DNA of 64,000 nt from Minisyncoccota bacterium. GTDB taxonomy: Bacteria; Patescibacteriota; Minisyncoccia; Phycocordibacterales; SBAW01. The stretch spans positions 1,451 to 65,450 of the forward strand of contig DASZWM010000007.1 of assembly GCA_035546615.1 (NCBI GenBank), in the 5' to 3' direction. The notes under the pieces are model-generated. The model did no database searches. It worked only from the letters and a program-made list of their open reading frames with translations, and had not been told where the DNA came from. The translations under genes and the position numbers were made by a program. Below are positions 21,590 through 51,588 of the stretch, piece by piece; position 1 is the first letter of the stretch; every line of letters starts with the position of its first letter.

Positions 21590-23869
21590 TTATTGTCCAG
21601 GTTTTAGAGTGCCGTTCTTTATATTCGTGATAAGCCCCTGCACCTGTCCCGCCGCCGCGGGATTGAGCCTGATGACCTCTTCGAGCTCGGCGATGGTCTC
21701 GGCGGTCTTCCCTGCGGTGAAGTACGCGGAGGCGAGCTGCACGTGCATATTGGCGTCGTTCGGATTCTTCGCGACCCGAGCCTGCCAGACGGCGACGATG
21801 CGGCCGTACTGCTTGGTGTCGGTATATATCTGGAGGAGCTGGTCGTTATCGACCGCCGTGGTGCCGTACGCCTGCATAAGCAGCGCATCGGCTGCGGCGT
21901 TCTGGCCGGCGTAGTACAGGGCGCCGGCGTAGGCGATGCGCGCCTGCTCGTAATCGGGCGATAGGTCGAAGGCTTTCTTGAAGGCGGCCAGGCCGTTGCT
22001 CAAATCGCCCTTCTGTATATAGGTCTGGCCCTCTTGGAAGAGGATCTGCTGCTTGCCCGGCGAGAGCTTCGCGGCCGTAGCCAAATGCTTAAGCGCATCG
22101 TCGTACTGGCCGTACTGGGTCAGGAACAGGCTGTCGAACAACTCAAGGCGCGCGTCATTCTTACGCTGAGCAAGCATCGCGTCTCCCGCGGCGCGCGTAT
22201 AGGCGTATACGGTTTGGGTCAGCTCCGGGCTCGCGCCGGAAGAAGCCTGCCGCAGGCCGTTTGCGAACTGGAAGAGCTGTTCCGTGGTTTCCTGCCGGCC
22301 GAGCTCGGCCCCGTCGTCGAGTGCCGCCTTGAAGGAGGCGAACCGCTTGTCCGGCGTGCGCGGCGCGCCCGTGGGCTCGTTCGTCTGCAGGCCGTCGATA
22401 ATGGTCTGCGCGCGCGCCATGCCGCCGGCGTTGAGCATCCACGCTCCGCCGAGCACCAGCACGGCCACAAGCGGCGCGACTATGGCGACCGTATGGTCAT
22501 TAACGGGCCTGAGCCAGAACATCCACCGCGGCAGCGCCTTCCACGAAAGCACGTGGAGGTACGCCAGCAGCAGGAAGAAGTACGCGATGCTCAAAAGGTT
22601 GTCGAACACGAACAGGTTGTTGAAGGCGTAGGCCGCCAGAAGGCCCAGCAATACGGCCTGCTCGGGGCTGGTAAGCTCAGCCGAGCGGAGTATCGCCCAC
22701 ACGCCAAGCCCGAACAGCGATATGTACAAAAGGAGCGCCGGAACGCCGCCGGCGACGAACCAGTCGAGAAATTCGTTGTGCGCGCGGTCGAACCACTGCT
22801 CCTGCGCCCACATGGCCGGATTGTAATGCTCGTTGAATATGTAGCTGAAGTTCTCCTGGCCCCAGCCGGTAACCGGCTTCTCGAGCGCGCCCTGCACGGC
22901 CATAGGCCATATATAGAAGAGGCGGGCCTTGGTCGTGCCGTCCTCAAGCGATATAGACGCGAGGCGTCCGAGGCCGGGAGAGTTGCGGACGAAGTCCGTA
23001 TCCTTCACCGCGATGAAGAGCGCCGCGCATATCGCGATGACGCCAAGCGCTCCCCATGACGCGCGGCGAAGCGTCCTGTACTGCTCTTCCCTGGCGCGCA
23101 GCGCCACGTATACGGCGGCCACGATAAGCCCGCCCACAAAGCCCAAAAGCGCGCCGCGGGTCTCGGTAAAGTAGAGCGCCGGCAACTCGAGCAGGAGCGC
23201 GATGCCGTAGAGCGTCAATGCGGTCGGCGACCTGCGGTCGCGCACCATCATATAGAGCGTCAGGAAGAGGTTGAGCAGCATGAACACGGCCAGGTACGTC
23301 GCGTTGCCGAAGCTGGTATCGGCGCGCACGCCGGACTGGGTCGAGGGCGACAGGCCGAACAGGTGGAACACCTGGAAAAGCGCGTAGATGCCTTGCGTTG
23401 CTGCTACCGCTATAGAGATGCGGAAGAACGCGTCCCACCAGCGCGACGCGTTGAATACTGCGCCGGCCACCACGAACAGCGCGAACAGGTGTATGACGGT
23501 AATGTAGCCGTCCATGCGCTCGAAGTTGCTCCAGAAGCTCTTTATCGGGTCGACGCTCAGCGCGGTCGCAAGAGCCATCCACAGCACGAACGCGCCGGCG
23601 GCCCACATAAGGTACGAGGCCTTGGGGCGGTATGCCGGCTCCTTTATCGCGAGTATGGCGTACAGCAGGACGATAAGCTCGACGAGCAGGCGGAACACGA
23701 AGTTCTTGCCCGTAATGTACGGGAAGTACATGGCCGGCACCCAGCCGCTGCCGGCGACGATAAAGGAGATGCACGGGACGGCGCACAGCCCGCCGATAAT
23801 AGCCCAGCGCAGATAGGTGGTATACGACATACGCGACACTATACCACAACACAGGCCGCCGATCCCCAA
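21590..23869 (-). CDS. Polytopic membrane protein with O-antigen-ligase-like (Wzy_C) domain and C-terminal TPR repeats. Candidate oligosaccharyltransferase/polymerase
   Basis: About 12 TM helices. Wzy_C signature region ETRGALLGF...WFDRAHNEFLDWFVAGG. The C-terminal ~250 aa are TPR-like (YAGALYYAGQNAAAD..MHVQLASAYFTAGKTAETIAELEEVIRLNP). Confidence 0.8.
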   Translation of the reverse strand: MGIGGLCCGIVSRMSYTTYLRWAIIGGLCAVPCISFIVAGSGWVPAMYFPYITGKNFVFRLLVELIVLLYAILAIKEPAYRPKASYLMWAAGAFVLWMALATALSVDPIKSFWSNFERMDGYITVIHLFALFVVAGAVFNASRWWDAFFRISIAVAATQGIYALFQVFHLFGLSPSTQSGVRADTSFGNATYLAVFMLLNLFLTLYMMVRDRRSPTALTLYGIALLLELPALYFTETRGALLGFVGGLIVAAVYVALRAREEQYRTLRRASWGALGVIAICAALFIAVKDTDFVRNSPGLGRLASISLEDGTTKARLFYIWPMAVQGALEKPVTGWGQENFSYIFNEHYNPAMWAQEQWFDRAHNEFLDWFVAGGVPALLLYISLFGLGVWAILRSAELTSPEQAVLLGLLAAYAFNNLFVFDNLLSIAYFFLLLAYLHVLSWKALPRWMFWLRPVNDHTVAIVAPLVAVLVLGGAWMLNAGGMARAQTIIDGLQTNEPTGAPRTPDKRFASFKAALDDGAELGRQETTEQLFQFANGLRQASSGASPELTQTVYAYTRAAGDAMLAQRKNDARLELFDSLFLTQYGQYDDALKHLATAAKLSPGKQQILFQEGQTYIQKGDLSNGLAAFKKAFDLSPDYEQARIAYAGALYYAGQNAAADALLMQAYGTTAVDNDQLLQIYTDTKQYGRIVAVWQARVAKNPNDANMHVQLASAYFTAGKTAETIAELEEVIRLNPAAAGQVQGLITNIKNGTLKPGQ

Positions 23870-23873
23870 GGCG

Positions 23874-24197
23874 CTAGCTAACCGTGCCCCACGACGGCGT
23901 CATAAGGTCGCCTATCTGCCAATCCGCTATCTCGCGCAATATCTCGTTGTGCTCCCGGTGCTTGGGATGGTTGCGATATGTCTGCAGGGCCTCGTTGTCC
24001 CGGAATAGCCCGATGACGACGAGATGCACATTCTTGCGCATGTCGAGATTGTGCCCCGCCTGGAAGTACAAAATGCCCGCCTCCTTGCCGCCGCATTCCT
24101 CGGCGAGCGTCTGGAACCGGTCGTACACCTCCTTCTTCTTTTCCTCCGGAGCACTGTCGTAGAACGATATCAATACGATGTGCGAGAGGTATTCCAT
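23874..24197 (-). CDS. Dabb-type stress-responsive alpha/beta-barrel protein
   Basis: 107 aa. HIVLISFYDSAPEEKKKEVYDRFQTLAEE..LVVIGLFRDNEALQTYRNHPKHRE. Confidence 0.7.
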   Translation of the reverse strand: MEYLSHIVLISFYDSAPEEKKKEVYDRFQTLAEECGGKEAGILYFQAGHNLDMRKNVHLVVIGLFRDNEALQTYRNHPKHREHNEILREIADWQIGDLMTPSWGTVS

Positions 24198-24217: not shown

Positions 24218-25582
24218 TCACTGCCGCAGTTTAGCGGCCGCCGCCCGGCGGCCATGCGCCACGTACATCACGTGCTTCGGGAGCGCACGCGCGTCGAACA
24301 TTCCCCACGGGTCTATGACGACCGTGCGCTTCTTCGCCTTTGCAAGCAGCGCGGGAAGTTCGCTGAAAAGCGGATCGGGATTGGATACGAATATGACTGA
24401 GCTCTGGCGCGCCAAGTCAGCAAGCGTCGGCACATGCAGAACCGACGTGCCCAGCAGGGTTTGTGCTTCCGCGCTGCCTAAAGGCTCGAACACCGCGACG
24501 CGGTAGCGATTGCGCAGCATGCGCTCCACGAGCGCCAGCGCCTGCGAGGCTTCGCCGTGCGTGGTCTTGGGCTTGTAGGAAATGCCGAGGAATCCGACGA
24601 CGTCGCGCTTGCTCCCGGCATGCTCCTCCAAAAGCGCATACATGCTCTCTTCCATCGTTTGGTTGAGGATGTCGGTGGAGCGCGCCAGGTGCGCGGTGAA
24701 ACCGCGCCGCTTTGCCATCGCATAGAACGCGCGGTTGTCGCGCGGGAAGCAGGGGCCGCCGAAGCCGAGCCCAGCCTTCAGGAACTTGCGCCCGATGCGC
24801 GAGTCCTTCCCTATCGCATTGGTTATCTCGTCGACATCGGCGTTCGGGATGCGCGAGGCGATGGCGGCCAGGCCGTTGGCGAACGATATCTTCATCGTCA
24901 AGAACGAATTGAGCGCAATCTTGGCAAGCTCCGCGCTCTCCACGCTCATGCGCTCTATGGCCTGCGACCCCGGATACAGGGTCGTAAAGATCCCCTCCAC
25001 CGCGTCGCCCGCGCGCCCGTCGTGCGCGCCGAGGAACACGAAGTCGGGGCGCTCGAGGTTGTTAAGAATGTCGCCGATGGCGATGAGGCTCGGGCTGTAG
25101 ACGTAGCCGAAGTCGCGGCCGCAGACCTTGCCCGACGCGCGTTCGAATTCGGGTATGATGCGCTCGCGCGAGTCCCCCGGCAATACGGTGCTCACCAGCA
25201 CGAACGTGTGCCATCCCTTCTTGCGCCTGAGCGCCGGGCCCATCGTGCGCGCCGCGGCGGCCACGTAGTCGACCGAGAACAGCCCGCTCTTTTCGCTCGG
25301 CGTGGGCACGATGATAAACGTGATGTCGGTCTCGGCTATGAGCCGGTCCATGTCGGTTGTTGCCGAAAGGCGGCCCCTCGCCGCGGTTATGTAGTCCTGG
25401 AGGCCCGGCTCGGGCACGGGCGCCTTGCCCGCCTCGATGCTCGCGACCTTATGCTCATCAACGTCGAACCCGAGCACCTCGAATCCGGAGCGCGTAAGGA
25501 ACGCCGCATAGCACGCGCCGAGCTTCCCGAGCCCCACCACCGAAAGGCGCGGGAGTTTTTTCTTTGTGGTTTTTGTTTTCAT
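24218..25582 (-). CDS. Nucleotide-sugar dehydrogenase (UDP-glucose/GDP-mannose dehydrogenase family)
   Basis: Rossmann N-terminus LSVVGLGKLGACYA. Catalytic GFGGPCFPRD. Full-length three-domain protein (454 aa). Confidence 0.9.
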   Translation of the reverse strand: MKTKTTKKKLPRLSVVGLGKLGACYAAFLTRSGFEVLGFDVDEHKVASIEAGKAPVPEPGLQDYITAARGRLSATTDMDRLIAETDITFIIVPTPSEKSGLFSVDYVAAAARTMGPALRRKKGWHTFVLVSTVLPGDSRERIIPEFERASGKVCGRDFGYVYSPSLIAIGDILNNLERPDFVFLGAHDGRAGDAVEGIFTTLYPGSQAIERMSVESAELAKIALNSFLTMKISFANGLAAIASRIPNADVDEITNAIGKDSRIGRKFLKAGLGFGGPCFPRDNRAFYAMAKRRGFTAHLARSTDILNQTMEESMYALLEEHAGSKRDVVGFLGISYKPKTTHGEASQALALVERMLRNRYRVAVFEPLGSAEAQTLLGTSVLHVPTLADLARQSSVIFVSNPDPLFSELPALLAKAKKRTVVIDPWGMFDARALPKHVMYVAHGRRAAAAKLRQ

Positions 25583-25741: not shown

Positions 25742-26242
25742 ATGGAAAGGAAACGTTACGTGGGAAGACTGACCAATGAAGACTACGCACGGATATTCGA
25801 CCGGACGACGGGACTCGGCATTGTCCGCGCCGCATGGGACCTCCTCATTCTCGACGAGGACAAGCGGGTCGCGCTCGTGCAGCGGGACATCCCGCCGGAG
25901 CTGGGCACCTGGCATTTGCCGGGCGGCAAGATAAACGGCGGCGAAAGCTTCCAGGAGTTTGCTTCGCGGGTCGCGAAGCACGATCTCGGCATCGGCGTCG
26001 AGTTCGTTGACGCGGTAGGCGGCCTCAACTTCCCTGCAGAGGTATCGACGATGGAAGTAGAGGGCGAAGAGCGCGAGCTCACCATCCATACCGTCTCGAC
26101 TATCCTGCTGTGCAAGCCGCTGTCAGCCGGTTTGCGCGGCAGCGCCGAAGGCAAGAATGTCGGATGGTTCGCAACGGCGCCGAAGCCTGCGCACAGCGTC
26201 CATATTCCGTGGCTCCTGAAGCACGGCTACCTGCAGGCCTAA
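25742..26242 (+). CDS. NUDIX-family hydrolase (degenerate Nudix box)
   Basis: GGKINGGESFQEFASRVAKHDLGIGVE resembles Gx5Ex7REUxEExGU. Confidence 0.55.
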   Translation: MERKRYVGRLTNEDYARIFDRTTGLGIVRAAWDLLILDEDKRVALVQRDIPPELGTWHLPGGKINGGESFQEFASRVAKHDLGIGVEFVDAVGGLNFPAEVSTMEVEGEERELTIHTVSTILLCKPLSAGLRGSAEGKNVGWFATAPKPAHSVHIPWLLKHGYLQA

Positions 26243-26376: not shown

Positions 26377-27219
26377 GTGACCGGATGCATTTCTGCAACC
26401 AGCACGAACACGGAGGTCATTGATTTGTCTACGTTCAAAACGTATTTGGAGACGCTGCAGGCGCAGCTCATCCCCTCTTACACGCCGCCGGCCACACCCG
26501 GCGGCTACGACGTCAACCACGTCCTCGAGATGGCGGCCCTGGGTCCGAGCATCAAGGCGCTTCCGCGCTATAAGACCCTCGACATGGAGGAGTTCGTCAC
26601 GGCGGTCTGGCTGCACAACAGCGACCGACCCGACAGCATGGTGAACTTCCTGCACAACAAGGACTACCCGCGCGGGGACGACGGCTGGAAGAACGACAAC
26701 TGGAAGCCATACCTCCAGAAGCTGCTCGCCGACAGCCCCTTCGACGATGAGGCACGGAACCGCATCATTGACGCTGTGCTCGAGCACTCCAAGAAGGACG
26801 ATGAGGAAGGCGATTCAGTCCTTCTCACCGCGCTGCGCATCGCCGACAAGGTGGTTCGCTTCGGGCCGCTTGGCATGATGGGCCAGCCCGCCAATCGCGG
26901 GCGCACCCAGATGTTCTACGACCCCGAGGAACCGTTCGTCTACGGCTCGACGGCGGAGGACAAGCTGCGCGCGGTATGGAACGACTACTTCCGCGTGCTC
27001 GAGTGGCTTACGATGCTTCTCAAGCGCGCGCTGACCGAAGACGAGCTGTGGTCGCTGGTGGACAAGGCGGACATCGCCGACGAAGTCCACTACATCCGCG
27101 GCGTCGGCCGGCAGATCGCCCGCGTCACCGGGGGCGAGAACAAGGTCGAAGAGTGCGTGCAGAAGGCGCTCGGCGATCTCTACAAGCAGTTCCCGCCGAT
27201 GCAGCTCGTGCCCGCCTAG
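26377..27219 (+). CDS. Hypothetical protein, possibly HD-superfamily-like (H..HNSD..D pattern). Start uncertain: GTG 26377 or TTG 26425
   Basis: Codon-biased, protein-like ORF with no confident family match from sequence alone. Confidence 0.55.
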   Translation: MTGCISATSTNTEVIDLSTFKTYLETLQAQLIPSYTPPATPGGYDVNHVLEMAALGPSIKALPRYKTLDMEEFVTAVWLHNSDRPDSMVNFLHNKDYPRGDDGWKNDNWKPYLQKLLADSPFDDEARNRIIDAVLEHSKKDDEEGDSVLLTALRIADKVVRFGPLGMMGQPANRGRTQMFYDPEEPFVYGSTAEDKLRAVWNDYFRVLEWLTMLLKRALTEDELWSLVDKADIADEVHYIRGVGRQIARVTGGENKVEECVQKALGDLYKQFPPMQLVPA

Positions 27220-27397: not shown

Positions 27398-28393
27398 ATG
27401 TACCAGAATCGGGAGATAAAAACGGCCCTTGTCCTGGGCGCCGGCGGCTTTATCGGCAGCCACCTGGTTCGCCGCCTCAAGAAAGAGGGCTTCTGGGTCC
27501 GCGGCGTCGACCTCAAATACCCTCAGTTCAGCATCCCCGAGGCCGACGAGTTCGTCCTGGGCGACCTGCGCGACCAGGCGGTGTGCCTCGGCGTGTTCGA
27601 CCGGCCGTTTGATGAGGTGTATCAGCTGGCAGCGGACATGGGCGGCGCCGGCTATATCTTTACCGGCGAGCATGATGCCGACGTCATGCACAATTCCGCG
27701 ACCATCAACCTCAACGCGGCGTACTACGGCCGCCAGGCGGGCGTGAAGAAGTTCTTCTACTCGTCCTCCGCATGCATGTACCCCGCCTACAACCAGGTGG
27801 ACCCGGACAACCCCAATTGCGCGGAAGACTCCGCGTATCCGGCAGCCCCCGACAGCGAGTACGGCTGGGAGAAGCTTTTCAGCGAGCGCCTGTACCTCGC
27901 CTTCAAGCGCAACTACGGCCTCAACGTGCGCATCGCCCGCTTCCACAATATCTTCGGCCCCGAAGGCACCTGGCAGGGCGGCAAGGAAAAGGCGCCGGCC
28001 GCGATATGCCGCAAGGTCGCTGAAGCGCCTCAGGGCAGCAGCATAGAGATATGGGGCGACGGCGAGCAGACCCGCTCCTTCCTATATATAGATGAGTGCC
28101 TCGAGGGCATGCGTCGCCTCATGGACTCCGAGTTCGAGGGCCCGGTCAACATCGGCTCCGACGAAATGGTAACCATCAACCAGCTGGCGCAGATGGCCAT
28201 GGATGCCGCCGGAAAACAGCTTTCCATAAAGCACATTGACGGTCCGCTCGGCGTGCGCGGCCGCAACTCGGACAACACGCTCATACGGCAAATGCTCGGC
28301 TGGGCACCGTCTGCACCGCTGCGTGAGGGTGTCGAGAAGACGTATCGCTGGATAGAACAGCAGCGCCTGCTCAATTCGATACGTCCCCGGTAA
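27398..28393 (+). CDS. gme: GDP-mannose 3,5-epimerase homologue (extended SDR), expected to form GDP-L-galactose/GDP-L-gulose
   Basis: Block-by-block match to plant GME: LAADMGGAGYI, KKFFYSSSACMYPAYNQ, RFHNIFGPEGTWQGGKEKAPAAICRK, IWGDGEQTRSFLYIDECLEG, PVNIGSDEMVTINQLAQ, GPLGVRGRNSDNTLIRQMLGWAP. Confidence 0.85.
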   Translation: MYQNREIKTALVLGAGGFIGSHLVRRLKKEGFWVRGVDLKYPQFSIPEADEFVLGDLRDQAVCLGVFDRPFDEVYQLAADMGGAGYIFTGEHDADVMHNSATINLNAAYYGRQAGVKKFFYSSSACMYPAYNQVDPDNPNCAEDSAYPAAPDSEYGWEKLFSERLYLAFKRNYGLNVRIARFHNIFGPEGTWQGGKEKAPAAICRKVAEAPQGSSIEIWGDGEQTRSFLYIDECLEGMRRLMDSEFEGPVNIGSDEMVTINQLAQMAMDAAGKQLSIKHIDGPLGVRGRNSDNTLIRQMLGWAPSAPLREGVEKTYRWIEQQRLLNSIRPR

Positions 28394-29260: not shown

Positions 29261-29681
29261 TGTCCATAAAGTCAAAAGTCTTTAATGCCTGTACAGTGAG
29301 AGAAGGGATATGACCATAGAACGATTCGAGGACATACTTGCATGGCAGAAAGCAAAAGAGTTGACGCTTTTGGTATATGCGGCATTCAAGGATAATAAGG
29401 ATTACGGCTTCAGGGACCAGATACAAAGGGCCTGCGTTTCAATAATGAATAATATCGCTGAAGGTTTTGAAAGAAAGGGCGATAAGGAATTCAAACAATT
29501 CTTATACATTGCCAAAGGGTCCTGCGGAGAAGTCAGATCTATGTTGGACATCGCCCTGGGCTTGGCGTATGTAGATCAAGAGCACTATACGCGCTACCGC
29601 GATCTATCCGTCGACACTTCTAAATTGCTGTCGGGATTCATCAAGACGCTTTAGACATTCAACATTCTGACTTTATGGACA
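29261..29681. repeat. IVS-like cassette: 14-bp perfect inverted repeats TGTCCATAAAGTCA (29261-29274) / TGACTTTATGGACA (29668-29681) flanking a four-helix-bundle gene inserted between wzm and wzt
   Basis: Exact reverse-complement arms. The right arm contains the wzt ATG (29675). The ORF inside belongs to the family typically found in 23S rRNA intervening sequences. Confidence 0.6.
29310..29654 (+). CDS. Four-helix-bundle protein of the 23S rRNA intervening-sequence protein family
   Basis: 114 aa. ERFEDILAWQKAKELTLLVY..IMNNIAEGFERKGDKEFKQFLYIAKGSCGEV. SD AAGGGA 4 nt upstream. Confidence 0.75.
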   Translation: MTIERFEDILAWQKAKELTLLVYAAFKDNKDYGFRDQIQRACVSIMNNIAEGFERKGDKEFKQFLYIAKGSCGEVRSMLDIALGLAYVDQEHYTRYRDLSVDTSKLLSGFIKTL

Positions 29682-40950: not shown

Positions 40951-40951
40951 G

Positions 40952-45734: not shown

Positions 45735-45795
45735 TAAACTATTTCATTAAAAGGGCGTCCGGGCAAATCGTTTCTACAAAGACGTTGGAACGGAT

Positions 45796-46713
45796 TCACA
45801 GCGTCTGTTGCCATGCCTCTGCCCATGCTACTTCTGATAGAACCGGGATCTTCAATTCCCCTCGCGCTCCGGTCTGGAATACCTCAACGACCGCATCAGC
45901 GAGCCTGCCGCGGGAGGCGATGCGCGCGCCGGCCTCGCGCGCAATGCCGACATCATACGATACTACCGGAACGCCCGCGGCAAGCGCCTCCACGATGGAG
46001 GCGCCGTAGCTTTCGTGGGGCGAAGTAGACAGCACCACATCCGCCATAGCCAGATAGGGAGCCGGATCCTGCCAGCCGGCGAACTCCACATATCCCCCAA
46101 GCGGCTTGGCCTGCGCGCGCAAGGGCGCTTCCAGGCTGCCGCTTCCGAGGAATATAAGCCCCGCATCCGCGCCGCGCTTTCGTGCCTGCTCCAGCACCCC
46201 AAGCGCCTGCGCGGGGTCCTTCTCGCGCTCGAGCCGCCCTATCCAAAGAATGGTTTTTGCGAATTTCGGGTGCCGTTTCTTCTCCAAGTTCCTGAACTTC
46301 GAAACATCAATAAAGACCGGCAGTACGTGAACGGGGGCAGAAATCCGCATCCGTTCGATTTGTTTTTTTATTTTTTCCGATACCGCGCGTATCGAATCCG
46401 CCTGGCCAAGCACCATCTGCGCCAGCGCGTAACGAATGAATCCCTGCCCCATCAGGTCCGCGTGCACCTGAATGTTGAGCCGGGCCTTCAGCCTGCGCGC
46501 CACAACCCAGGCGACAAGACCCCGCCAGAAGGGATCCTGCGCGGTAATGACGTCATAGCTGCCTTCCGTAAGCAAAGGAGAAAAGATGGCGCCGCGGCCC
46601 CAGTATACGACATCAAGCGCCTCTATCTGTTTCTTCTGCAATTCCATGCGCGCATGCGCCGCCGTGCCCCGCTTAAGCACATTCCTGTCGCCGGTTACCA
46701 TCAATACTTTCAT
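45796..46713 (-). CDS. GT4-family glycosyltransferase (short)
   Basis: MKVLMVTGDRNVL..ILWIGRLEREKDPAQALGVL..HESYGASIVEALAAGVPVVSYDVG. Confidence 0.75.
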   Translation of the reverse strand: MKVLMVTGDRNVLKRGTAAHARMELQKKQIEALDVVYWGRGAIFSPLLTEGSYDVITAQDPFWRGLVAWVVARRLKARLNIQVHADLMGQGFIRYALAQMVLGQADSIRAVSEKIKKQIERMRISAPVHVLPVFIDVSKFRNLEKKRHPKFAKTILWIGRLEREKDPAQALGVLEQARKRGADAGLIFLGSGSLEAPLRAQAKPLGGYVEFAGWQDPAPYLAMADVVLSTSPHESYGASIVEALAAGVPVVSYDVGIAREAGARIASRGRLADAVVEVFQTGARGELKIPVLSEVAWAEAWQQTL

Positions 46714-47723
46714 GCAATGCTGTTTGCCGTGTCCAATACTTCGTCGGCTATCTGCGCCCAGGAGTGCGTATAGGAGAACGCCCGGATGCGCCCGACGTAC
46801 TGCTTATACTTCTCCGCATCAAGCAGTTCTTCCAGTCCCGCTTCCATCGCCTTTTTGTCGAGGGTATCCGCGAACACGCCAAGGCCCTGCAGCTTTTCGA
46901 ACATGCCGCTGTCGCGGGGCGCCATGAACGGTTTTCCGTACTTGAGCGCTTCGATAATGTTGTTGGAGTTTACCTCGCTCACCGACGGCACGACGTATGC
47001 GTATATGCCGGCCAGGCGGGCCAAGTGCTCTTCCCGCGGAAGCGGCCGCGTATCAAGCTCGATATCGGGATGCCGTTTCGCCGCTTCGCTGAAAGCTTCC
47101 TCAAATCCGGCGATATTCTTATACGCGATGCCGCGGCCGGCGGCGAGAAATATTTTCTTGCCGCGGGGTGCGGGCGTTTCATGCCGCTCGCCTGAATACT
47201 CGTTCTCAAGCAGGCGCATCCGGCCTATGTCGATGTTATAGGCTTTCCGCCATATCTCCATCTGCCAGAGCGTATTGAAAAGGAGCATACCGGCGTGCCG
47301 CGCCAAAAAGCCGGTCACCCCGTATATAACGCGCTCCTTAAGCGTAAAGTTGCGCTTTGTGGCGTAAAAGCCCGACAGCGGGACCATCTCTCCGGTGCGC
47401 TCTATATACCCTTCCCACAGAATGTCCCCGCCCACGCGCGCCAGGAACTTTTCCCCGCATAGCTTCGCCGCGCATAGCGCCGGGAAGCCGACGCTCCAGG
47501 TATCGAGCGCAAGCACCGCATCCGAACCTATAACGCGCGGCAGCAGCCTGAAGAAATACCATAGGTGCCGCGCGCCCCACGGCAGCAGCCGCTCGGCCCG
47601 GCCCCATACGACCAGCCGGGGCTTGAGCCCGCGGCGGTTCAGCTCGTCAAAAAGCTCTTTTGCGTACTTCGCCGGGCCGCCGATCTGCGGCGGAAAAAGA
47701 GGCGCCGCTATTGTTAATCTCAT
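46710..47723 (-). CDS. GT1/GT4-like glycosyltransferase
   Basis: MRLTIAAPLFPPQIGGPAKYAKEL..IFLAAGRGIAYKNIAGFEEA..NNIIEALKYGKPFMAPRDSG. Confidence 0.65.
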   Translation of the reverse strand: MRLTIAAPLFPPQIGGPAKYAKELFDELNRRGLKPRLVVWGRAERLLPWGARHLWYFFRLLPRVIGSDAVLALDTWSVGFPALCAAKLCGEKFLARVGGDILWEGYIERTGEMVPLSGFYATKRNFTLKERVIYGVTGFLARHAGMLLFNTLWQMEIWRKAYNIDIGRMRLLENEYSGERHETPAPRGKKIFLAAGRGIAYKNIAGFEEAFSEAAKRHPDIELDTRPLPREEHLARLAGIYAYVVPSVSEVNSNNIIEALKYGKPFMAPRDSGMFEKLQGLGVFADTLDKKAMEAGLEELLDAEKYKQYVGRIRAFSYTHSWAQIADEVLDTANSIA

Positions 47724-47724
47724 A

Positions 47725-48732
47725 TCACTGCCACAGGGAGCGCTTGCGGGTCCCCCGCTCGCGTATCCATTTCGCTACCGGCTCAAGCCCTTCCTCGAGC
47801 CCGACCTTCGGCGACCAGCCAAGCTTCTCGCGTATCTTCGCGATATCGACCTCGCGGCGCAGGGCCGTATCGGCTTGCGTATCGACGACCGCGTATTTAA
47901 AGGGCCGGTCGCCGCCGTATTTCTCCCAGATACGCTTGCCGAGCTCGAGAATGGTGTAATGGGTGTCGTTTCCTATATTAAAGTCCTCGTTCTTCACCAT
48001 ATCTTCTGCCCGGGCGGCGCGCATCACCACCGCAACCGTCGCCTCAACGGCGTCGTCGATATATACGAACGGCCGGGTGGCTTCCGGGTTTCCGAGGAAC
48101 TCAAGCGGATACTGGCCGCCCAGTACTTTCTGAAGGAGTGCCGGGATGACATGGATATCGCCCGGGGTGGAGCCTTTGGAATCCTCGCCGGGGCCGTAAA
48201 TATTGTGATAACGGATGATCGTATACTCCAGGCCGAACTGGGCCGCATACGAGCGGCAGAAGTATTCTCCCCCGAGCTTTGCGAAGCCGTACACGTTGGA
48301 CGGCGGCCGGATGTCGCGGATATCCTTCTCGGTGTACGGAAATTGCGGCGGATATTGGAATACCGCCGAGCTTGAGGAATAGATGACCCACGGGATCTTG
48401 TTCGCGACAAGCGCCGGGTAGACGGCGGCGTCTATGGCCGAGTTGTTGGTGAGTATCTCGGCCTGGTGATCGTGCATGTACGTGAGCGAACCGATATCCG
48501 CCGCCAAGTGGAGCACGAGATCGGCGCCGGCAAGACCCTTCAGCGCCTCGCCCGGGATGCGCAGGTCGTGCCGGCGGAACTCGATGCCCGGCGAGAAGGT
48601 GATGCCGCGCTCCTCGGGGGTTGCGATGTCGACCACGAGAACCTTTTCTCCCGCCTTATTGAGCGCCTCGGCCACGCGGCTGCCGACGTAGCCGGTGCCG
48701 CCGGTGATGAGAATGGTTTTGCCCGTAGCCAT
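47725..48732 (-). CDS. NAD-dependent epimerase/dehydratase (extended SDR)
   Basis: Start MATGKTILITGGTGYVGSRV at 48732. YSSSSAVFQY..YGFAKLGGEY (YxxxK). Confidence 0.85.
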   Translation of the reverse strand: MATGKTILITGGTGYVGSRVAEALNKAGEKVLVVDIATPEERGITFSPGIEFRRHDLRIPGEALKGLAGADLVLHLAADIGSLTYMHDHQAEILTNNSAIDAAVYPALVANKIPWVIYSSSSAVFQYPPQFPYTEKDIRDIRPPSNVYGFAKLGGEYFCRSYAAQFGLEYTIIRYHNIYGPGEDSKGSTPGDIHVIPALLQKVLGGQYPLEFLGNPEATRPFVYIDDAVEATVAVVMRAARAEDMVKNEDFNIGNDTHYTILELGKRIWEKYGGDRPFKYAVVDTQADTALRREVDIAKIREKLGWSPKVGLEEGLEPVAKWIRERGTRKRSLWQ

Positions 48733-48754
48733 ATAGCCTATAACTATGCATAAT

Positions 48755-48800
48755 GGCATAAAATTGCAAAAAGAAAAGGGCGGCCCGTGGGGCCGCCCTT
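48755..48800 (-). terminator. Intrinsic terminator
   Basis: aagggcggccc-gtg-gggccgccctt followed on the minus strand by UUUCUUUUUGCAAUUUUAUG. Confidence 0.6.
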
Positions 48801-48810: not shown

Positions 48811-49293
48811 CTAGTCGTCTGTGTAGTACGAGCTACCGTTCCCGGAAAAGGAATTCCTTGGATGCTCGGATTGGAGGCGGAGATGGATCTTTACATGGAA
48901 CTCCTGCGCGAGCAATTCCGCCAACTTCTTGAAAGACTCAAGACGTTCGCGCCCGTAGAGCTCCATCACCCACTCCTTGGGATTCGCGCCGTGTTCCTTG
49001 CTTGCGAACCACAGCATTGCAATAAGGGAGCGGGGCTTCTCGCCAAAAGCGTGCCGCAGGTACCATTTATTCCACCTGCGGCTCTTCTCGTTTTCCGCCA
49101 CAAACCCGTACTGGTTTGTTTCGCGGGGACCGGAGTGACCCCAGCTTTCGTTAAGGGTTAACAATACCTCTGGGTGCGTGCCAGCGAGATACTTCTCGAT
49201 GGATTCGCCGATGCTTTTGCTCTTTACTTGGAACGATTCCGCGAACGAGACAGATTCCTTTTCGCTCTGCAATGAAGACATGAGATTCTCCAA
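48811..49293 (-). CDS. Hypothetical protein (160 aa)
   Basis: Protein-like composition with its own terminator. No family recognised. Confidence 0.5.
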   Translation of the reverse strand: MENLMSSLQSEKESVSFAESFQVKSKSIGESIEKYLAGTHPEVLLTLNESWGHSGPRETNQYGFVAENEKSRRWNKWYLRHAFGEKPRSLIAMLWFASKEHGANPKEWVMELYGRERLESFKKLAELLAQEFHVKIHLRLQSEHPRNSFSGNGSSYYTDD

Positions 49294-49424: not shown

Positions 49425-50441
49425 TTAAAAGGCCAGGAGAAGAATAGCATCGATAACGACTATGGCCGCCGCAAGCACCAAAAACGGCCGCCAGTAGCGC
49501 GCAAGAAACTCGCGCGGGTCGGAGATATTCTTATACAAAGAGAACCACAGCTCGCGCCATGCGACGAAGCCCGACATGTGCGGCGTCTGCCATGCGGAGA
49601 ACCACTCCGGCAGCGCCGGATGCCGCACCGAAAGCGCCTCATGCGCCGCGTTGGACGCGTACACGCCGCGAAGAAGGTCGACGTTCTTCCCCTGCTCGCC
49701 GAACCACTTCACGAACGCCCGCGTATCCTTGGGAAGGCAGTGTCCACCGAACGCGCGCCCGTAGCGGGTGTACCCTTCCCCGCCGAGCACGAAGTTAAGA
49801 ACGCGGCTGATGGAATCGACATCCTGGGGAGTCGAGGGTTCCGCTATCGCGTCGCCGAACTCGTTGACGAAGGCGATGCGCGTCGCGTTCCAGAGATTTG
49901 AAAGATATTTCACGAAAGCGGCCTCCCGCGGAGTGCCGCCGAACTGGAGCGGCGTCGCGCGCTGCCACGCGTCGAAGAACGCCGGCCGCGAGGTTTTCGT
50001 GTCGCGGATACCGAGCACGAAGAAGTGCGGCGAGAGGCATTCCTCGACTGCCGTTTTCTCGTGCAGGAATTCCGGCATGTAGAAATCAAAGTTGAGGCTT
50101 TCGAGCAGGTCGGGGATGACCGTGGAGCGCAGCACCACAGCGCCCTTCGCATCTTTCAGCGATTCAAGCGCCGCGCGTATGGCGCTTATGTCCTGCGTGC
50201 CGTCCTCCGCCACCTTGTCGCCGACGCATACGATGTACGCCGTGTCCGCCGCATCGCGCTCAAGAACACCCGAAAGCCGCGTAATGCGCCCGTACGCATC
50301 CGCGTACGTATCTGTATAGTGCAGCGACGGATTGCCCGGGTCAAAATAGGAAACATGGAATCCCATGCGCGAAAGCGCCAGGGCGTTCGCCTGCCCTACC
50401 CATCCGAAGCCCACTATCACAACCGTGCCGCCCGTTTGCAT
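49425..50441 (-). CDS. Truncated nucleotide-sugar-dehydrogenase-like protein with C-terminal TM anchor
   Basis: N-terminal Rossmann VVIVGFGWVGQANALA and catalytic GGHCLPKDT. It lacks the usual C-terminal UDP-binding domain and ends in a hydrophobic helix, FLVLAAAIVVIDAILLLAF. Confidence 0.65.
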   Translation of the reverse strand: MQTGGTVVIVGFGWVGQANALALSRMGFHVSYFDPGNPSLHYTDTYADAYGRITRLSGVLERDAADTAYIVCVGDKVAEDGTQDISAIRAALESLKDAKGAVVLRSTVIPDLLESLNFDFYMPEFLHEKTAVEECLSPHFFVLGIRDTKTSRPAFFDAWQRATPLQFGGTPREAAFVKYLSNLWNATRIAFVNEFGDAIAEPSTPQDVDSISRVLNFVLGGEGYTRYGRAFGGHCLPKDTRAFVKWFGEQGKNVDLLRGVYASNAAHEALSVRHPALPEWFSAWQTPHMSGFVAWRELWFSLYKNISDPREFLARYWRPFLVLAAAIVVIDAILLLAF

Positions 50442-50475
50442 AGGAGTTACCGTACCATTTCGGGAAAATAAGTAA

Positions 50476-51588
50476 ATGCTATATGCTTGCAGTATGGATA
50501 ACCGCGCTCCGTTGATATACGTTTCCCCCTATTACGACCCCAAGGTGCCTTCGGGAGCTAACCGCCGGTTCGACGAGATATGCCGGCGATACAGCCGCGA
50601 CTACGGCGACCGCTTTACGCTCATTGTCGCCAAAGGAAAGGTCCCCCTATGGTGGAACGGCAAGAACCTGGTCGAAGTCGACTACAAGTTCGACCACCCC
50701 AGCAAATTCACCGCGGCGCGGCAGATAGCGAAAGTGCTCGACGCCTTGCCCCCGTCCATCGTCGTTATCGAGTCGGTCCCGGTCCCCTACCGCGCGCTCA
50801 GGCGCCACATGCAGGTCCAGGTAGTGTACGATTTCCGCTACTTCACCGGCGACAGCAAAAGCTTCCTCTACCGCCTCATATTTACGCCGTACCTTAAGTG
50901 GCAATGGGGCCGCTCGCAATTCCTCCTTACCTGCAGCGACTTTTCGGTGGCTGAAGCGCGCAAGTACCTGCGCTACGACCCGGCCCGCGTCATAAAGAGC
51001 TACTTCGGCATCGACGAGAAAGTGCTCGACCTGGCGAACACGCCCGCGCCCGCCAAGGACGTCGACATCATATACGTCGCCCATTTCGAGAAGCGCAAGA
51101 ATCACGAGCCGCTCATCCGCGCTATCGCGCGGCTTAATAAGGATTTGCGCGTGGTATTTAACGGCCGCGACAACGGCATGCAGGCGGAGCTCGAAGCCTT
51201 GTGCCGCGAGCTCGGGCTTACGAACGTTACCTTCAGCGGGGGCAAGTCTGACGCGGAGCTGTGGAACATGTATCGCAGGAGCCGCGTCTTCGCCTACCCT
51301 TCTTTGTACGAAGGCTTCGGCATCCCGCTTATCGAGGGTCTGGCGCTCGGCGTGCCGGTAGCCGTCGCGGACACGGAAGTGTTCCATGAGGTCGGTAGCG
51401 ATCTGGTATCGTATTTCGACGGCCGCGACCCAGAGGATATTGCCCGCGTACTTAAAGGAATTCTGGATAACCCGCAGGTGCCGTCTCCCGAGAAGGTCCG
51501 CGCGCACTTGGAAAAATTCTTCTGGGAGAATATCTACAAAAAGATGGTGGAGGATACGGAGGCCGAGGCCGGGCCGCTTTTGCGCTAA
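50476..51588 (+). CDS. GT4-family glycosyltransferase
   Basis: FEKRKNHEPLIRAIARL..VFAYPSLYEGFGIPLIEGLALGVPVAVADTEVFHEV. Confidence 0.8.
   Translation: MLYACSMDNRAPLIYVSPYYDPKVPSGANRRFDEICRRYSRDYGDRFTLIVAKGKVPLWWNGKNLVEVDYKFDHPSKFTAARQIAKVLDALPPSIVVIESVPVPYRALRRHMQVQVVYDFRYFTGDSKSFLYRLIFTPYLKWQWGRSQFLLTCSDFSVAEARKYLRYDPARVIKSYFGIDEKVLDLANTPAPAKDVDIIYVAHFEKRKNHEPLIRAIARLNKDLRVVFNGRDNGMQAELEALCRELGLTNVTFSGGKSDAELWNMYRRSRVFAYPSLYEGFGIPLIEGLALGVPVAVADTEVFHEVGSDLVSYFDGRDPEDIARVLKGILDNPQVPSPEKVRAHLEKFFWENIYKKMVEDTEAEAGPLLR

What the first reader, a model, noticed from the sequence alone, without database searches (positions are those of the whole stretch)
21590..51588. Hypothesis: a protein O-glycosylation system (Wzy_C-TPR oligosaccharyltransferase plus ABC-exporter-dependent, methyl-capped glycan assembly)
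The ~30-kb locus combines four elements. First, a Wzy_C (O-antigen-ligase-like) membrane protein fused to TPR repeats. The same fold is used by O-oligosaccharyltransferases of S-layer and pilin glycosylation systems, and a TPR domain would suit protein-substrate recognition. Second, Wzm/Wzt with a C-terminal glycan-binding domain on Wzt, which in known systems recognises a terminal methyl or phosphate cap. Third, six methyltransferases (three FkbM-type and three SAM class I) and a tri-domain GT4-GT2-MT-like enzyme reminiscent of chain-terminating WbdD/WsaE-type proteins. Fourth, about 12 glycosyltransferases and two nucleotide-sugar dehydrogenases. Within 12 kb lies the giant, extremely Ser/Thr-rich surface protein. 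If the organism is a monoderm CPR-like bacterium it has no LPS to decorate, so a glycoprotein, or a teichoic-like polymer, is the more plausible product.
Basis: inference. Interest (0 to 1): 0.75.

Follow-up and report, generated by a model that had tools for sequence, protein, structure and literature searches.

The report
Conserved glycan ligase beside variable sugar island
In an ultra-small (CPR/Paceibacterota) bacterium that has no LPS, a 28-kb strain-variable gene island for building and exporting a methylated surface sugar chain sits next to a lineage-wide, WaaL-like membrane enzyme carrying an outward-facing TPR domain. That enzyme most likely attaches the chain to a fixed envelope target, probably protein, but the target has not been shown.

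Summary
Window 21590-51588 holds a Wzy_C+TPR membrane protein, Wzm/Wzt with a Wzt_C-like C-terminal domain, 11 glycosyltransferase proteins, five stand-alone methyltransferases, two NDP-sugar dehydrogenases and two epimerases. The third domain of the GT4-GT2 enzyme is a degenerate FkbM relic. The organism is a Paceibacterota (CPR) bacterium.

New findings:
- The Wzy_C-TPR protein belongs to a large, full-length-conserved family (at least 519 species genomes, 35-92% identity).
- The gene always sits upstream of (murB)-secA-obg-gatB.
- In most loci the DNA on its 5' side holds glycan genes, and their content is hypervariable: 2-9% of genes are shared there, against 25-56% downstream. Exporters there are Wzx, Wzm/Wzt or fused-ABC types.
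- The closest relative (92% identity) has a completely different island. A 70% relative has the same one.

This argues for an en-bloc ligase or oligosaccharyltransferase, not a polymerase. A protein acceptor is plausible (about 0.5), and the giant Ser/Thr-rich protein as target is only about 0.2; neither is tested. No initiating phosphoglycosyltransferase lies in the window.

The parts
21590..23830 (-). Wzy_C-TPR protein, 746 aa from the ATG at 23830. It has a 12-TM WaaL-like core, a 13th TM helix and an extracytoplasmic helical/TPR domain (about 493-738). Proposed en-bloc glycan ligase or O-oligosaccharyltransferase.
23874..24197 (-). Dabb (stress-responsive A/B barrel) protein, 107 aa. It is packed tightly between the dehydrogenase and the Wzy_C-TPR gene, with gaps of 20 and 43 nt.
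   Evidence: Pfam Dabb E 1.5e-13. It occupies the same position in L088. Homology to L001 ends at 23849, so this gene belongs to the island.
24218..25582 (-). NDP-sugar (UDP-glucose/GDP-mannose type) 6-dehydrogenase, full length, three domains.
   Evidence: Pfam. NCBIfam TIGR03026, 296 bits, above its cut-off.
25742..26242 (+). NUDIX hydrolase, possibly a nucleotide-sugar hydrolase. A near-consensus promoter lies at 25686-25713.
   Evidence: Pfam NUDIX; promoter scan.
26377..27219 (+). 280-aa protein with no family match. Absent from the otherwise collinear island of L088. Preceded by a perfect TTGACA-17-TATAAT promoter.
27398..28393 (+). SDR NDP-sugar epimerase, dehydratase or reductase.
   Evidence: Pfam Epimerase E 1e-42. 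The best NCBIfam hit is GDP-L-fucose synthase, far below its cut-off.
28417..29238 (+). Wzm, the ABC-2 permease of the glycan exporter.
   Evidence: Pfam ABC2_membrane, 62 bits. 97% identical to the L088 copy.
29310..29654 (+). 23S_rRNA_IVP (four-helix-bundle) protein inserted between wzm and wzt. Not part of the pathway.
   Evidence: Pfam E 1e-32. Absent at this position in L088.
29675..30931 (+). Wzt: an ABC ATPase with an island-specific C-terminal carbohydrate-binding-type domain (about 263-418).
   Evidence: ABC_tran plus Wzt_C (29.6 bits, E 8e-7). Best PDB match is 8dku/7k2t over residues 56-365. The NBD is 67-98% identical in 10 loci, and the C-terminal domain is found only in L088.
30991..33519 (+). 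842-aa enzyme with a GT4-like domain, a GT2 domain and a degenerate FkbM relic. Probable chain-extending (polymerising) glycosyltransferase.
   Evidence: Pfam. Homologues of about 890 aa carry FkbM at the C-terminus. The window's C-terminus aligns to P0139 residues 816-888 at 45% identity, but the SAM motif is lost. No Pfam methyltransferase hit.
33560..35050 (+). Two-domain protein: an unknown N-terminal domain plus a GT11-like C-terminal part. The start codon is uncertain; the longest ORF begins at 33434.
   Evidence: Pfam GT11 E 4e-7, C-terminal part only. 74% identical to the L088 copy.
35054..35773 (+). FkbM-family methyltransferase.
   Evidence: Pfam PF05050 E 4e-22.
35761..36759 (+). 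332-aa soluble protein with no family match.
36684..38569 (+). Two tandem GT11 (alpha-1,2-fucosyltransferase family) glycosyltransferases, at 36684-37658 and 37643-38569.
   Evidence: Pfam E 9e-36 and 8e-29.
38600..39397 (+). Class-I SAM methyltransferase.
   Evidence: Pfam Methyltransf_25/23/12/11.
39390..40310 (+). GT15 (Kre2/Mnt1-type alpha-1,2-mannosyltransferase family) glycosyltransferase.
   Evidence: Pfam PF01793 E 2e-26.
40324..41695 (-). Two class-I SAM methyltransferases, at 40324-41187 and 40952-41695. The longest ORFs overlap, so the downstream gene probably starts later.
   Evidence: Pfam Methyltransf_11/12/23/25.
41656..43890 (-). Two GT4 glycosyltransferases, at 41656-42816 and 42823-43890.
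   Evidence: Pfam Glyco_trans_1_4 and Glycos_transf_1.
43883..44644 (-). FkbM-family methyltransferase.
   Evidence: Pfam PF05050 E 2e-18.
44670..47723 (-). Three GT4-type glycosyltransferases, at 44670-45734, 45796-46713 and 46710-47723. The last gives only a weak match.
   Evidence: Pfam.
47725..48759 (-). SDR NDP-sugar epimerase or dehydratase.
   Evidence: Pfam Epimerase E 3e-42; NCBIfam.
48811..49293 (-). 160-aa protein with no family match.
49425..50441 (-). NDP-sugar dehydrogenase-like protein. It lacks the C-terminal UDP-binding domain and ends in a hydrophobic segment.
   Evidence: Pfam: N-terminal and central domains only. NCBIfam 110 bits, below the 189.8 cut-off. Hydrophobic segment at 312-330.
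50476..51588 (+). GT4 glycosyltransferase, the last gene of the island.
   Evidence: Pfam E 5e-29. In L019 and L080 the backbone genes VirD4 and RsmI abut the Wzy_C-TPR gene with no island between them.
3..9308 (-). Giant membrane-anchored surface protein: at least 3102 aa, 27.6% Ser+Thr, LVIVD repeats. It is only a speculative acceptor. It belongs to the conserved core gene order, not to the island.
   Evidence: Homologues lie downstream of gatB in at least 16 loci.

Best explanation
The region is a strain-variable surface-glycan island of about 28 kb (about 23.85-51.6 kb). It is inserted into the conserved Paceibacterota backbone murD-murC-rsmI-virD4 | Wzy_C-TPR-murB-secA.

Proposed pathway:
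1. Soluble glycosyltransferases build a complete glycan on a polyprenyl-phosphate carrier at the cytoplasmic face. These are GT4 x6-7, GT2, GT11 x2-3 and GT15. The initiating transferase is encoded outside the window.
2. The sugars probably include uronic acids and 6-deoxyhexose, fucose-like or mannose-type residues. They are O-methylated by up to five methyltransferases.
3. Wzm/Wzt exports the finished chain. The island-specific C-terminal domain of Wzt probably recognises a chain-end feature.
4. The adjacent Wzy_C-TPR protein then transfers the glycan en bloc from the lipid carrier to a conserved extracytoplasmic acceptor. This enzyme has a WaaL-fold 12-TM core, the invariant R225/R303/H351 triad, a 13th TM helix and an outward-facing TPR domain.

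Because this lineage is reported to lack lipid A and LPS, the acceptor is most likely one or more envelope proteins. That would make the enzyme an O-oligosaccharyltransferase in the manner of PglL, WsaB or WsfB, with the TPR domain as the acceptor-docking module.

Shown here: gene content, fold, conserved catalytic residues, family distribution, island variability and replacement, and the variability of the Wzt C-terminal domain. Inferred: the donor lipid, the methyl cap, en-bloc transfer and the protein acceptor.
For: - Gene content and the absence of Wzx, Wzz or a second Wzy.
- Wzt matches full-length Aquifex Wzt into its carbohydrate-binding domain (CBD). Its C-terminal domain co-varies with island type.
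- hhalign places invariant R225/R303/H351 on E. coli WaaL R215/R288/H338. PMC3643930 reports these as functionally important and shared with PglL R224/R298/H349.
- The family also has P319-x-x-G322-x-G324. This matches the P313/G316/G318 pattern that the same paper lists as PglL-specific. E. coli WaaL lacks it.
- The helix count puts the TPR domain on the same side as the catalytic loop.
- The family is found in at least 519 species genomes and 1944 50%-identity clusters at E<=1e-30.
- secA lies downstream in 57 of 58 loci. Every hit to the window's glycan genes lies upstream.
- A Pfam census of 46 loci finds Wzx x14, ABC x6-10, methyltransferases, epimerases, cytidylyltransferases and GTs upstream.
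- Gene sharing is 2-9% upstream against 25-56% downstream.
- The 92%-identical relative L001 loses DNA homology about 20 nt upstream of the start codon. The 70% relative L088 has the same island, with Wzm 97% identical.
- Literature: WsfB carries a C-terminal TPR and WsaA/WsaB are paired; slg clusters use Wzm/Wzt plus a methylating multi-domain GT (PMC2943079). A Parcubacterium lacks lpxC and kdsA (PMC5220378).
Against: - There is no direct evidence for any acceptor.
- The PglL-specific Pfam models (PglL_A, Wzy_C_2) are not matched.
- No sequence-level hit to any solved structure, even with a profile.
- hhalign to E. coli WaaL has low probability (3.5%, E 0.012), so residue equivalences rest on motif agreement and the fold match.
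- No pilin, S-layer (SLH) or sortase-substrate gene is in the window.
- No initiating phosphoglycosyltransferase is in the window.
- Two related loci (L019, L080) have the Wzy_C-TPR gene with little or no island beside it, so adjacency is not obligatory.
- Its conserved position among mur genes could point to a cell-wall acceptor.
- The methyltransferase domain of the WsaE-like enzyme is degenerate, so a methyl cap is unproven.
- Absence of LPS genes was not tested for this genome.
Confidence: 0.5

Rival explanations
1. The enzyme works by the same en-bloc transfer chemistry, but the acceptor is not protein. It would ligate the exported glycan to a membrane glycolipid or lipoglycan anchor, or to peptidoglycan or lipid II. 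The product would be an O-antigen-like or teichoic-like polymer of a monoderm envelope.
For: - The closest solved fold is WaaL, a lipid-acceptor ligase.
- PglL-specific domains are absent.
- The gene is embedded among murD, murC and murB in the backbone.
- No candidate glycoprotein gene is linked to the island.
Against: - Attachment of wall polymers to peptidoglycan in monoderms is normally done by LCP enzymes, not Wzy_C proteins (general knowledge).
- TPR modules usually bind proteins or peptides. They accompany the S-layer O-OTases WsfB and WsaA/WsaB (PMC2943079).
- The PxxGxG motif resembles PglLs rather than E. coli WaaL.
- CPR bacteria are thought to scavenge lipids, so a dedicated conserved lipid acceptor is not known.
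Confidence: 0.28
2. The Wzy_C-TPR protein is a Wzy-type polymerase (or a TuaE-like polymerase). It would polymerise repeat units at the outer face of the membrane.
For: Pfam Wzy_C also covers some polymerases. Many related loci carry a Wzx flippase directly upstream (14 of 46 loci), and the Wzx route normally needs a polymerase.
Against: - The window's island is ABC-transporter dependent. It has no Wzx or Wzz, and all its GTs are soluble, so no periplasmic polymerase is needed.
- Polymerases are repeat-unit specific and highly divergent. This protein is 35-92% identical and full length beside unrelated islands.
- Several Wzx-type islands contain other unannotated proteins of 360-520 aa that could be their own Wzy. 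Their membrane topology was not examined.
- The WaaL/PglL catalytic triad is invariant.
Confidence: 0.07
3. The adjacency is positional only. The site between virD4 and the Wzy_C-TPR gene is a recombination hot spot for glycan islands, as galF-gnd is for O-antigen loci. The Wzy_C-TPR protein has a housekeeping role unrelated to the island's product.
For: The gene is core, while the island is present, absent or replaced. A terminator-like site and a promoter-like site separate it from murB, but no clear promoter of its own was found. L019 and L080 lack an island.
Against: - Its only recognisable biochemical function (Und-PP-glycan transferase fold with an intact triad) needs exactly the kind of donor the islands make.
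- In the window and in L088 it is packed with the island genes ugd and dabb on the same strand, with gaps of 20-43 nt.
- Glycan genes are the dominant class upstream across 46 loci.
Confidence: 0.12

Closest known systems
S-layer protein O-glycosylation (slg) clusters of Geobacillus stearothermophilus NRS 2004/3a and Paenibacillus alvei (WsaB/WsfB O-OTases, Wzm/Wzt, WsaE)
   Same: - A monoderm-type envelope without LPS.
- Glycan built on a lipid carrier by soluble GTs and exported by Wzm/Wzt.
- A multi-domain GT-GT-methyltransferase enzyme (WsaE).
- A Wzy_C-domain transferase encoded at the cluster. WsfB carries a C-terminal TPR, and WsaB has a separate TPR protein, WsaA (PMC2943079).
- Asn-synthase homologues (wsfA) also occur in related Paceibacterota islands.
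   Different: - No S-layer (SLH) gene and no initiating WsaP-type transferase are in the window.
- The methyltransferase domain of the WsaE-like enzyme is C-terminal and degenerate here.
- Sequence similarity to WsaB or WsfB was not tested.
- Here the transferase is a lineage-wide core gene at a fixed chromosomal site, and whole islands are swapped beside it.
WaaL O-antigen ligase (E. coli WaaL; Cupriavidus metallidurans WaaL, PDB 7tpg/7tpj)
   Same: - The catalytic R/R/H triad.
- It accepts products of both the Wzx/Wzy and the ABC-transporter routes.
- The ligase is conserved while the glycan locus is hypervariable.
   Different: - 16% identity, and no HMM-level match to WaaL sequences in the PDB.
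- An extra 13th TM helix and an extracytoplasmic helical/TPR domain of about 280 aa.
- The host lineage is reported to lack lipid A-core, WaaL's acceptor.
- The PxxGxG motif is absent from E. coli WaaL.
PglL/PglS/TfpO/TfpM O-oligosaccharyltransferases of Proteobacteria
   Same: - The Wzy_C core and the same triad (PglL R224/R298/H349).
- A P-x-x-G-x-G motif like PglL P313/G316/G318 (PMC3643930).
- Relaxed donor specificity would fit the variable islands.
   Different: - The PglL_A (PF15864) and Wzy_C_2 (PF11846) models are not matched.
- There is no adjacent pilin or other acceptor gene.
- The phylum and envelope type differ.
- The TPR domain is much larger.
E. coli O8/O9a and Klebsiella ABC-transporter-dependent O-polysaccharide systems (WbdA/WbdD, Wzm/Wzt-CBD)
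   Same: - Wzm plus Wzt with a serotype-specific C-terminal binding domain.
- Multi-domain polymerising GTs.
- Methyltransferases that could supply a terminal cap.
   Different: - There is no WbdD-like kinase, methyltransferase or coiled-coil terminator.
- The fused FkbM domain is degenerate.
- The final acceptor cannot be lipid A-core.

Membership tests
Wzy_C / O-antigen-ligase superfamily (PF04932; WaaL-fold GT-C-like) | Significant match to the Wzy_C model | tested here: met
   E 5e-22, 78.7 bits against a 31.7 cut-off, residues 224-383.
Wzy_C / O-antigen-ligase superfamily (PF04932; WaaL-fold GT-C-like) | 12-TM WaaL-type fold with a large extracytoplasmic loop between TM9 and TM10 | tested here: met
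   [not shown]
Wzy_C / O-antigen-ligase superfamily (PF04932; WaaL-fold GT-C-like) | Catalytic Arg/Arg/His triad (E. coli WaaL R215, R288, H338; PglL R224, R298, H349) | tested here: met
   R225, R303 and H351 are invariant in 50- and 40-sequence alignments. They align to R215/R288/H338. The residue roles are taken from PMC3643930.
WaaL (LPS O-antigen ligase) | A lipid A-core acceptor is present in the organism (lpx, kds and waa genes) | not testable with these tools
   Only a 64-kb window is held, and it contains no lpx, kds or waa gene. Literature: a curated Parcubacterium genome lacks lpxC and kdsA (PMC5220378).
PglL/PglS-type O-OTase | PglL_A (PF15864) and Wzy_C_2 (PF11846) domains flank Wzy_C | tested here: not met
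   Neither model appears at E<=0.01 in the Pfam scan. Only the PxxGxG motif resembles PglL.
PglL/TfpO-type O-OTase | Demonstrated transfer to Ser or Thr of a protein, or an adjacent acceptor (pilin) gene | tested here: not met
   No type IV pilin motif is found in any frame of the window. Enzymatic transfer cannot be tested in silico.
S-layer slg-type O-OTase (WsaB/WsfB) | A Wzy_C transferase with a fused or adjacent TPR, encoded with an ABC-transporter-dependent glycan cluster | tested here: met
   Architecture and cluster composition. The description of WsfB and WsaA/WsaB is in PMC2943079.
S-layer slg-type O-OTase (WsaB/WsfB) | A linked S-layer structural gene, and sequence relatedness to WsaB or WsfB | not tested
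   No SLH or S-layer family was hit in the window.
Wzy O-antigen/capsule polymerase | Repeat-unit specific: co-varies with the locus and co-occurs with Wzx and a Wzz/PCP | tested here: not met
   Conserved at 35-92% identity beside unrelated islands. The window's island has no Wzx or Wzz.
ABC-transporter-dependent glycan pathway | A Wzm permease and a Wzt ATPase | tested here: met
   ABC2_membrane 62 bits; ABC_tran 80 bits. PDB 8dku/6oih-type WzmWzt E 4e-63.
ABC-transporter-dependent glycan pathway | A Wzt C-terminal carbohydrate-binding domain specific for the chain terminus | tested here: inconclusive
   Wzt_C scores 29.6 bits, just below the 30.4 cut-off. The alignment to Aquifex Wzt reaches residue 365. 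The domain is island-specific. The isolated domain gives no PDB hit. Binding is untested.
ABC-transporter-dependent glycan pathway | A chain-terminating modification enzyme (WbdD/WsaE-type methyltransferase) | tested here: inconclusive
   Five stand-alone methyltransferases are present. The FkbM domain fused to the GT4-GT2 enzyme is degenerate.
ABC-transporter-dependent glycan pathway | An initiating polyprenyl-phosphate glycosyl-1-phosphate transferase (WecA or WbaP type) | tested here: not met
   No Glycos_transf_4 or Bac_transf hit, and no further polytopic membrane protein, in the island or window. It may be encoded elsewhere, as wecA is in E. coli.

The most novel reading that the evidence does not exclude
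Paceibacterota (CPR) bacteria have an O-antigen-like system without LPS. One lineage-wide, WaaL-fold ligase with an outward TPR docking domain decorates a conserved envelope acceptor with strain-specific glycans. That acceptor could be the giant Ser/Thr-rich surface proteins, pilins or an S-layer. The glycans are encoded by freely exchanged islands at a fixed chromosomal hot spot. This would give these episymbionts serotype-like surface diversity, which matters for host recognition and phage evasion.
Probability: 0.35. Interest if true: 0.75.

Novelty: new variant of a known kind. Interest (0 to 1): 0.55.

Why it matters
The cell envelope of CPR/Patescibacteria is essentially uncharacterised. 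PMC5220378 states that the mechanism of formation and the structure of the envelope remain unclear. This analysis gives a concrete, testable handle. A single highly conserved enzyme family (at least 519 species) probably performs the last step of envelope glycosylation. Beside it lies a hypervariable glycan island that behaves like an O-antigen locus. If the enzyme is a protein O-OTase with relaxed donor specificity, it would extend Wzy_C-type protein glycosylation to a large part of the CPR radiation. It would also explain how these episymbionts diversify their surfaces, and it would add a compact, donor-promiscuous enzyme to the glycoengineering toolbox. If the acceptor is instead a lipid or peptidoglycan, it would define a new class of monoderm wall glycopolymer attachment.

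Tried and rejected
- Exact-sequence look-ups of the window's Wzy_C-TPR, SecA and the 100%-identical homologue P0121 found no contig on record. The source record could therefore not be fetched. P0121 shows only that it is an NCBI Paceibacterota MAG contig of 65,450 bp.
- phmmer of the full protein against the PDB returned only TPR proteins.
- The TM domain alone, and a 40-sequence TM-domain profile, returned nothing. Only fold comparison linked it to WaaL.
- Pfam (E<=1) and BLAST against the island's own FkbM genes failed to identify the third domain of the 842-aa enzyme. Homologues resolved it.
- Pfam at E<=1 on the N-terminal domain of the 33434-35050 protein gave nothing.
- The isolated Wzt C-terminal domain gave no PDB hit.
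- A search for type IV pilin signal motifs in all six frames gave nothing.
- The right end of the window was checked for MraY/WecA. It holds a cold-shock-domain protein and tRNAs instead.
- A repeat search at the island borders found no flanking direct or inverted repeats suggestive of a mobile element.
- The afdb50 fold library was unavailable.
- Literature searches for CPR or Patescibacteria together with O-antigen ligase or glycosylation found no paper describing this family.
- Rejected: a polymerase role (see rivals).
- Rejected: the 125-aa ORF at 23878-24255. It is spurious; the real gene there is Dabb in another frame.

Full report
**Observation**

Six-frame ORF listing and Pfam/NCBIfam scans confirm the described content of window 21590-51588.

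On the minus strand at the left edge:
- The Wzy_C-TPR gene at 21590-23830. It is 746 aa from the ATG; the longest ORF starts 13 codons earlier at a TTG.
- A small Dabb gene at 23874-24197.
- A full-length NDP-sugar 6-dehydrogenase at 24218-25582.

A plus-strand block at 25742-40310:
- NUDIX, a 280-aa unknown, an SDR epimerase and Wzm.
- An inserted 23S_rRNA_IVP gene, then Wzt.
- An 842-aa GT4-like/GT2 enzyme.
- A roughly 500-aa protein with a GT11-like C-terminus.
- FkbM, a 332-aa unknown and two GT11.
- A class-I methyltransferase and a GT15.

A convergent minus-strand block at 40324-50441:
- Two class-I methyltransferases, two GT4 and FkbM.
- Three GT4-type proteins and an SDR epimerase.
- A 160-aa unknown and a C-terminally truncated dehydrogenase.

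A last GT4 lies at 50476-51588 on the plus strand.

Only Wzm and the Wzy_C-TPR protein are polytopic membrane proteins. There is no Wzx, Wzz, second Wzy or initiating phosphoglycosyltransferase.

Two details of the finding need correcting. I find five, not six, stand-alone methyltransferases. The 'MT-like' third domain gives no methyltransferase signal by Pfam or BLAST.

The giant ORF (3-9308, minus strand, at least 3102 codons, running off the window) is real. It has 27.6% Ser+Thr, seven LVIVD repeats and one N-proximal TM segment.

**Organism and flanks**

The flanks are housekeeping genes.
- Left: gatB, a three-LamG secreted protein, obg, a holin-4-like protein, dsbD, NUDIX, secA and murB.
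- Right: an LTD protein, a VirD4/TrwB-like ATPase, PGA_cap, rsmI, murC and murD.

Homologues of the Wzy_C-TPR protein and of the 842-aa enzyme are named Candidatus Paceibacterota, Parcubacteria, Adlerbacteria or Minisyncoccia. P0121 is 100% identical to the 842-aa enzyme and comes from an NCBI Paceibacterota MAG contig of 65,450 bp.

**The Wzy_C-TPR protein is a large, conserved family**

- The search for homologous proteins gave at least 2781 hits. The best 120 are all about 745 aa and 52-92% identical.
They include Adler-, Kaiser-, Campbell-, Lloyd-, Taylor- and Nomurabacteria, at 35-64% identity over the full length.
- An exhaustive HMMER search with the TM domain found 1944 50%-identity clusters at E<=1e-30. 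Nearly all of the top 150 are 700-800 aa long.

**Structure**

The AlphaFold2 model has pLDDT 89 and pTM 0.82.

The helix list gives nine TM helices and then a helical loop of about 80 residues. That loop carries the invariant GWGQENF and QEQWFDRAHNEFLDW motifs. Three more TM helices complete the WaaL-type 12-TM core. A 13th TM helix (445-467) follows, and then a helical/TPR domain of about 280 residues. With the Lys/Arg-rich loops 245-256 and 429-444 inside, the TPR domain lies on the same (outer) side as the catalytic loop.

hhalign against E. coli K-12 WaaL has low overall probability. It nevertheless aligns invariant R225, R303 and H351 with WaaL R215, R288 and H338. PMC3643930 lists these three as functionally important and as shared with PglL R224/R298/H349.

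The family also has P319-x-x-G322-W-G324. This has the same spacing as PglL P313/G316/G318, which that paper describes as PglL-specific. E. coli WaaL has PFSFRS at that place. The PglL_A and Wzy_C_2 Pfam models are not matched.

**Comparative genomics**

This is the most informative part. Five look-ups of homologues at 54-92% identity show one side constant: (murB)-secA-NUDIX/dsbD-holin4-obg-(LamG)-gatB. The 5' side always carries different glycan genes:
- L001: GtrA, GT2, methyltransferases and an Asn synthase.
- L003, L005 and L006: Wzx with GT47/GT4, epimerases, methyltransferases, or rml/DegT genes.
- L007: cytidylyltransferase and dehydrogenases.

Across 87 loci:
- secA lies downstream in 57 of 58 loci with enough flank, and murB in 43 of 66.
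- Every hit to a window core gene is downstream. All but one of the hits to window island genes are upstream.

A Pfam census of 139 ORFs within 4.2 kb upstream in 46 loci is dominated by Wzx (14), methyltransferases, FkbM (9), epimerases (9), ABC ATPases (6), fused ABC permeases (4), cytidylyltransferases, DegT and GTs.

In 43 loci with 8 kb on both sides, pairs share 2-9% of upstream genes against 25-56% of downstream genes.

At the DNA level, the closest relative is L001 (92% identical protein, 83-88% nucleotide identity across gatB to the Wzy_C-TPR gene). It loses homology at window position 23849, about 20 nt upstream of the start codon.

In L019 and L080 the backbone genes murC, rsmI and virD4 abut the Wzy_C-TPR gene with at most an epimerase between them. 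The window's 23.85-51.6 kb segment is therefore an insertion between virD4/LTD and the Wzy_C-TPR gene.

L088 is a more distant relative (Wzy_C-TPR 70%) but carries the same island in the same order: ugd, dabb, NUDIX, epimerase, wzm, wzt, the 841-aa enzyme, the GT11-like protein and FkbM. Its Wzm is 97% identical, its epimerase 90% and its Ugd 87%. Island and backbone thus have different histories, as in O-antigen loci. G+C also dips to 53-55% at 28-36 kb.

**Exporter and terminator**

Wzt's best solved relative is the full-length Aquifex aeolicus Wzt (8dku/7k2t). The alignment runs from residue 56 to 365, into the carbohydrate-binding domain. Pfam Wzt_C scores 29.6 bits.

The NBD is 67-98% identical in ten loci. 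The C-terminal 156 residues are detectable only in L088, the locus with the same island. This is the pattern expected of a glycan-specific binding module.

Full-length homologues of the 842-aa enzyme at 38-45% identity (about 890 aa) carry a C-terminal FkbM domain. The window protein and its 59-68% relatives are about 50 aa shorter. They keep the last 73 residues (45% identity to P0139). They have IYSIGEKNAQW where P0139 has VFDVGGYEGGW. The fused methyltransferase is therefore a relic, and any cap must come from the stand-alone methyltransferases.

**Interpretation**

Firmly supported:
- An ABC-transporter-dependent glycan island.
- A WaaL-fold transferase with intact catalytic residues and an outward TPR domain.
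- A core gene next to a hypervariable, laterally exchanged island that uses any of three export routes.

This combination fits a donor-promiscuous en-bloc ligase or oligosaccharyltransferase. It argues against a repeat-unit-specific polymerase.

Inferred:
- A protein acceptor. The grounds are as follows. PMC5220378 reports no lpxC or kdsA in a Parcubacterium and suggests glycoproteins or a glycosylated S-layer. PMC2943079 reports TPR on WsfB and the WsaA/WsaB pairing. The family has a PglL-like PxxGxG motif.
- The giant Ser/Thr-rich protein is a possible target, but its proximity reflects conserved core gene order. Homologues of the 279-aa protein and of the giant protein follow gatB in 27 and 16 loci respectively. 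I give it about 0.2.

A lipid or peptidoglycan acceptor remains a serious rival (0.28).

**Novelty**

The parts are all known kinds, and annotation pipelines already call the protein 'O-antigen ligase family'. I found no paper describing this CPR-wide family, its fixed position or the island exchange. I rate it a new variant of a known kind, of moderate interest. It offers a direct experimental handle on the unknown CPR envelope.

Noticed in passing
window 3-9308 (-) and 9689-10528 (-): The giant protein and the neighbouring 279-aa protein both start with a similar HTH_17-like cytoplasmic segment (…AAK(Q/R)…DY(I/V)G(Q/R)L(I/L)R…G…W(Y/F)V…). Both are single-pass membrane proteins. The 279-aa protein has an acidic linker and a C-terminal TM segment. 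The gatB, 279-aa, giant-gene order recurs in at least 16-27 related loci, and the L007 giant is 5104 aa with LVIVD and Peptidase_S74.
   Followed up: partly
window 12052-14151 (-): The secreted triple-LamG (Laminin_G_3) protein is only 31-33% identical to its positional counterparts in L001 and L003. The neighbouring genes obg, holin4 and secA are 83-97% identical to L001. It is a fast-evolving or replaced surface protein inside an otherwise conserved block.
   Followed up: partly
window 29310-29654 (+): A 23S_rRNA_IVP four-helix-bundle gene (Pfam E 1e-32) is inserted between wzm and wzt. It is absent from the collinear island of L088. From memory, this family includes the Avd accessory proteins of diversity-generating retroelements. 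No reverse transcriptase was seen in the window.
   Followed up: no
window 39390-40310 (+): A GT15 (Kre2/Mnt1 alpha-1,2-mannosyltransferase family, PF01793, E 2e-26) glycosyltransferase. From memory, this family is mainly fungal. No homologue was found in the 87 related loci.
   Followed up: no
window 49425-50441 (-): The second NDP-sugar dehydrogenase lacks the C-terminal UDP-binding domain and ends in a hydrophobic stretch (…FLVLAAAIVVIDAILLLAF). It may be membrane-tethered or a decayed paralogue.
   Followed up: no
window 51585-54237 (-): An LTD (lamin-tail-domain) membrane protein and a VirD4/TrwB-like coupling ATPase form part of the conserved backbone. The VirD4-like protein gives 745-822 bits to L019 and L080. 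No other type IV secretion or conjugation gene was seen nearby.
   Followed up: no
window 25677-25713 and 26330-26367 (+): Two near-identical promoter-like elements (ATA..GATATTGACA…; TTGACA-16/17-TA(C/T)AAT, 11/12 and 12/12 matches with a TG extension) precede the NUDIX gene and the 280-aa unknown. They are unusually canonical sigma-70 promoters for a CPR genome.
   Followed up: no
window 61007-61745 (-) and 62044-62999 (-): A tRNA-Leu(CAG) directly follows murD and overlaps the 3' end of a LAGLIDADG_3-domain ORF (231 aa). Further on lie a two-CSD cold-shock protein and a tRNA-Ile(GAT).
   Followed up: no
L001 (GCA_037975565.1 contig JBBCBH010012538.1): In the closest relative, secA, obg, gatB and an Asn-synthase gene are split into several short called genes. 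This suggests frameshift-rich assembly (or pseudogenisation), and it lowers gene-sharing counts for that locus.
   Followed up: no
window 28000-36000: G+C falls to 0.53-0.556 across wzm to FkbM, against about 0.59-0.63 in the flanks. This is consistent with foreign origin of the central part of the island.
   Followed up: no
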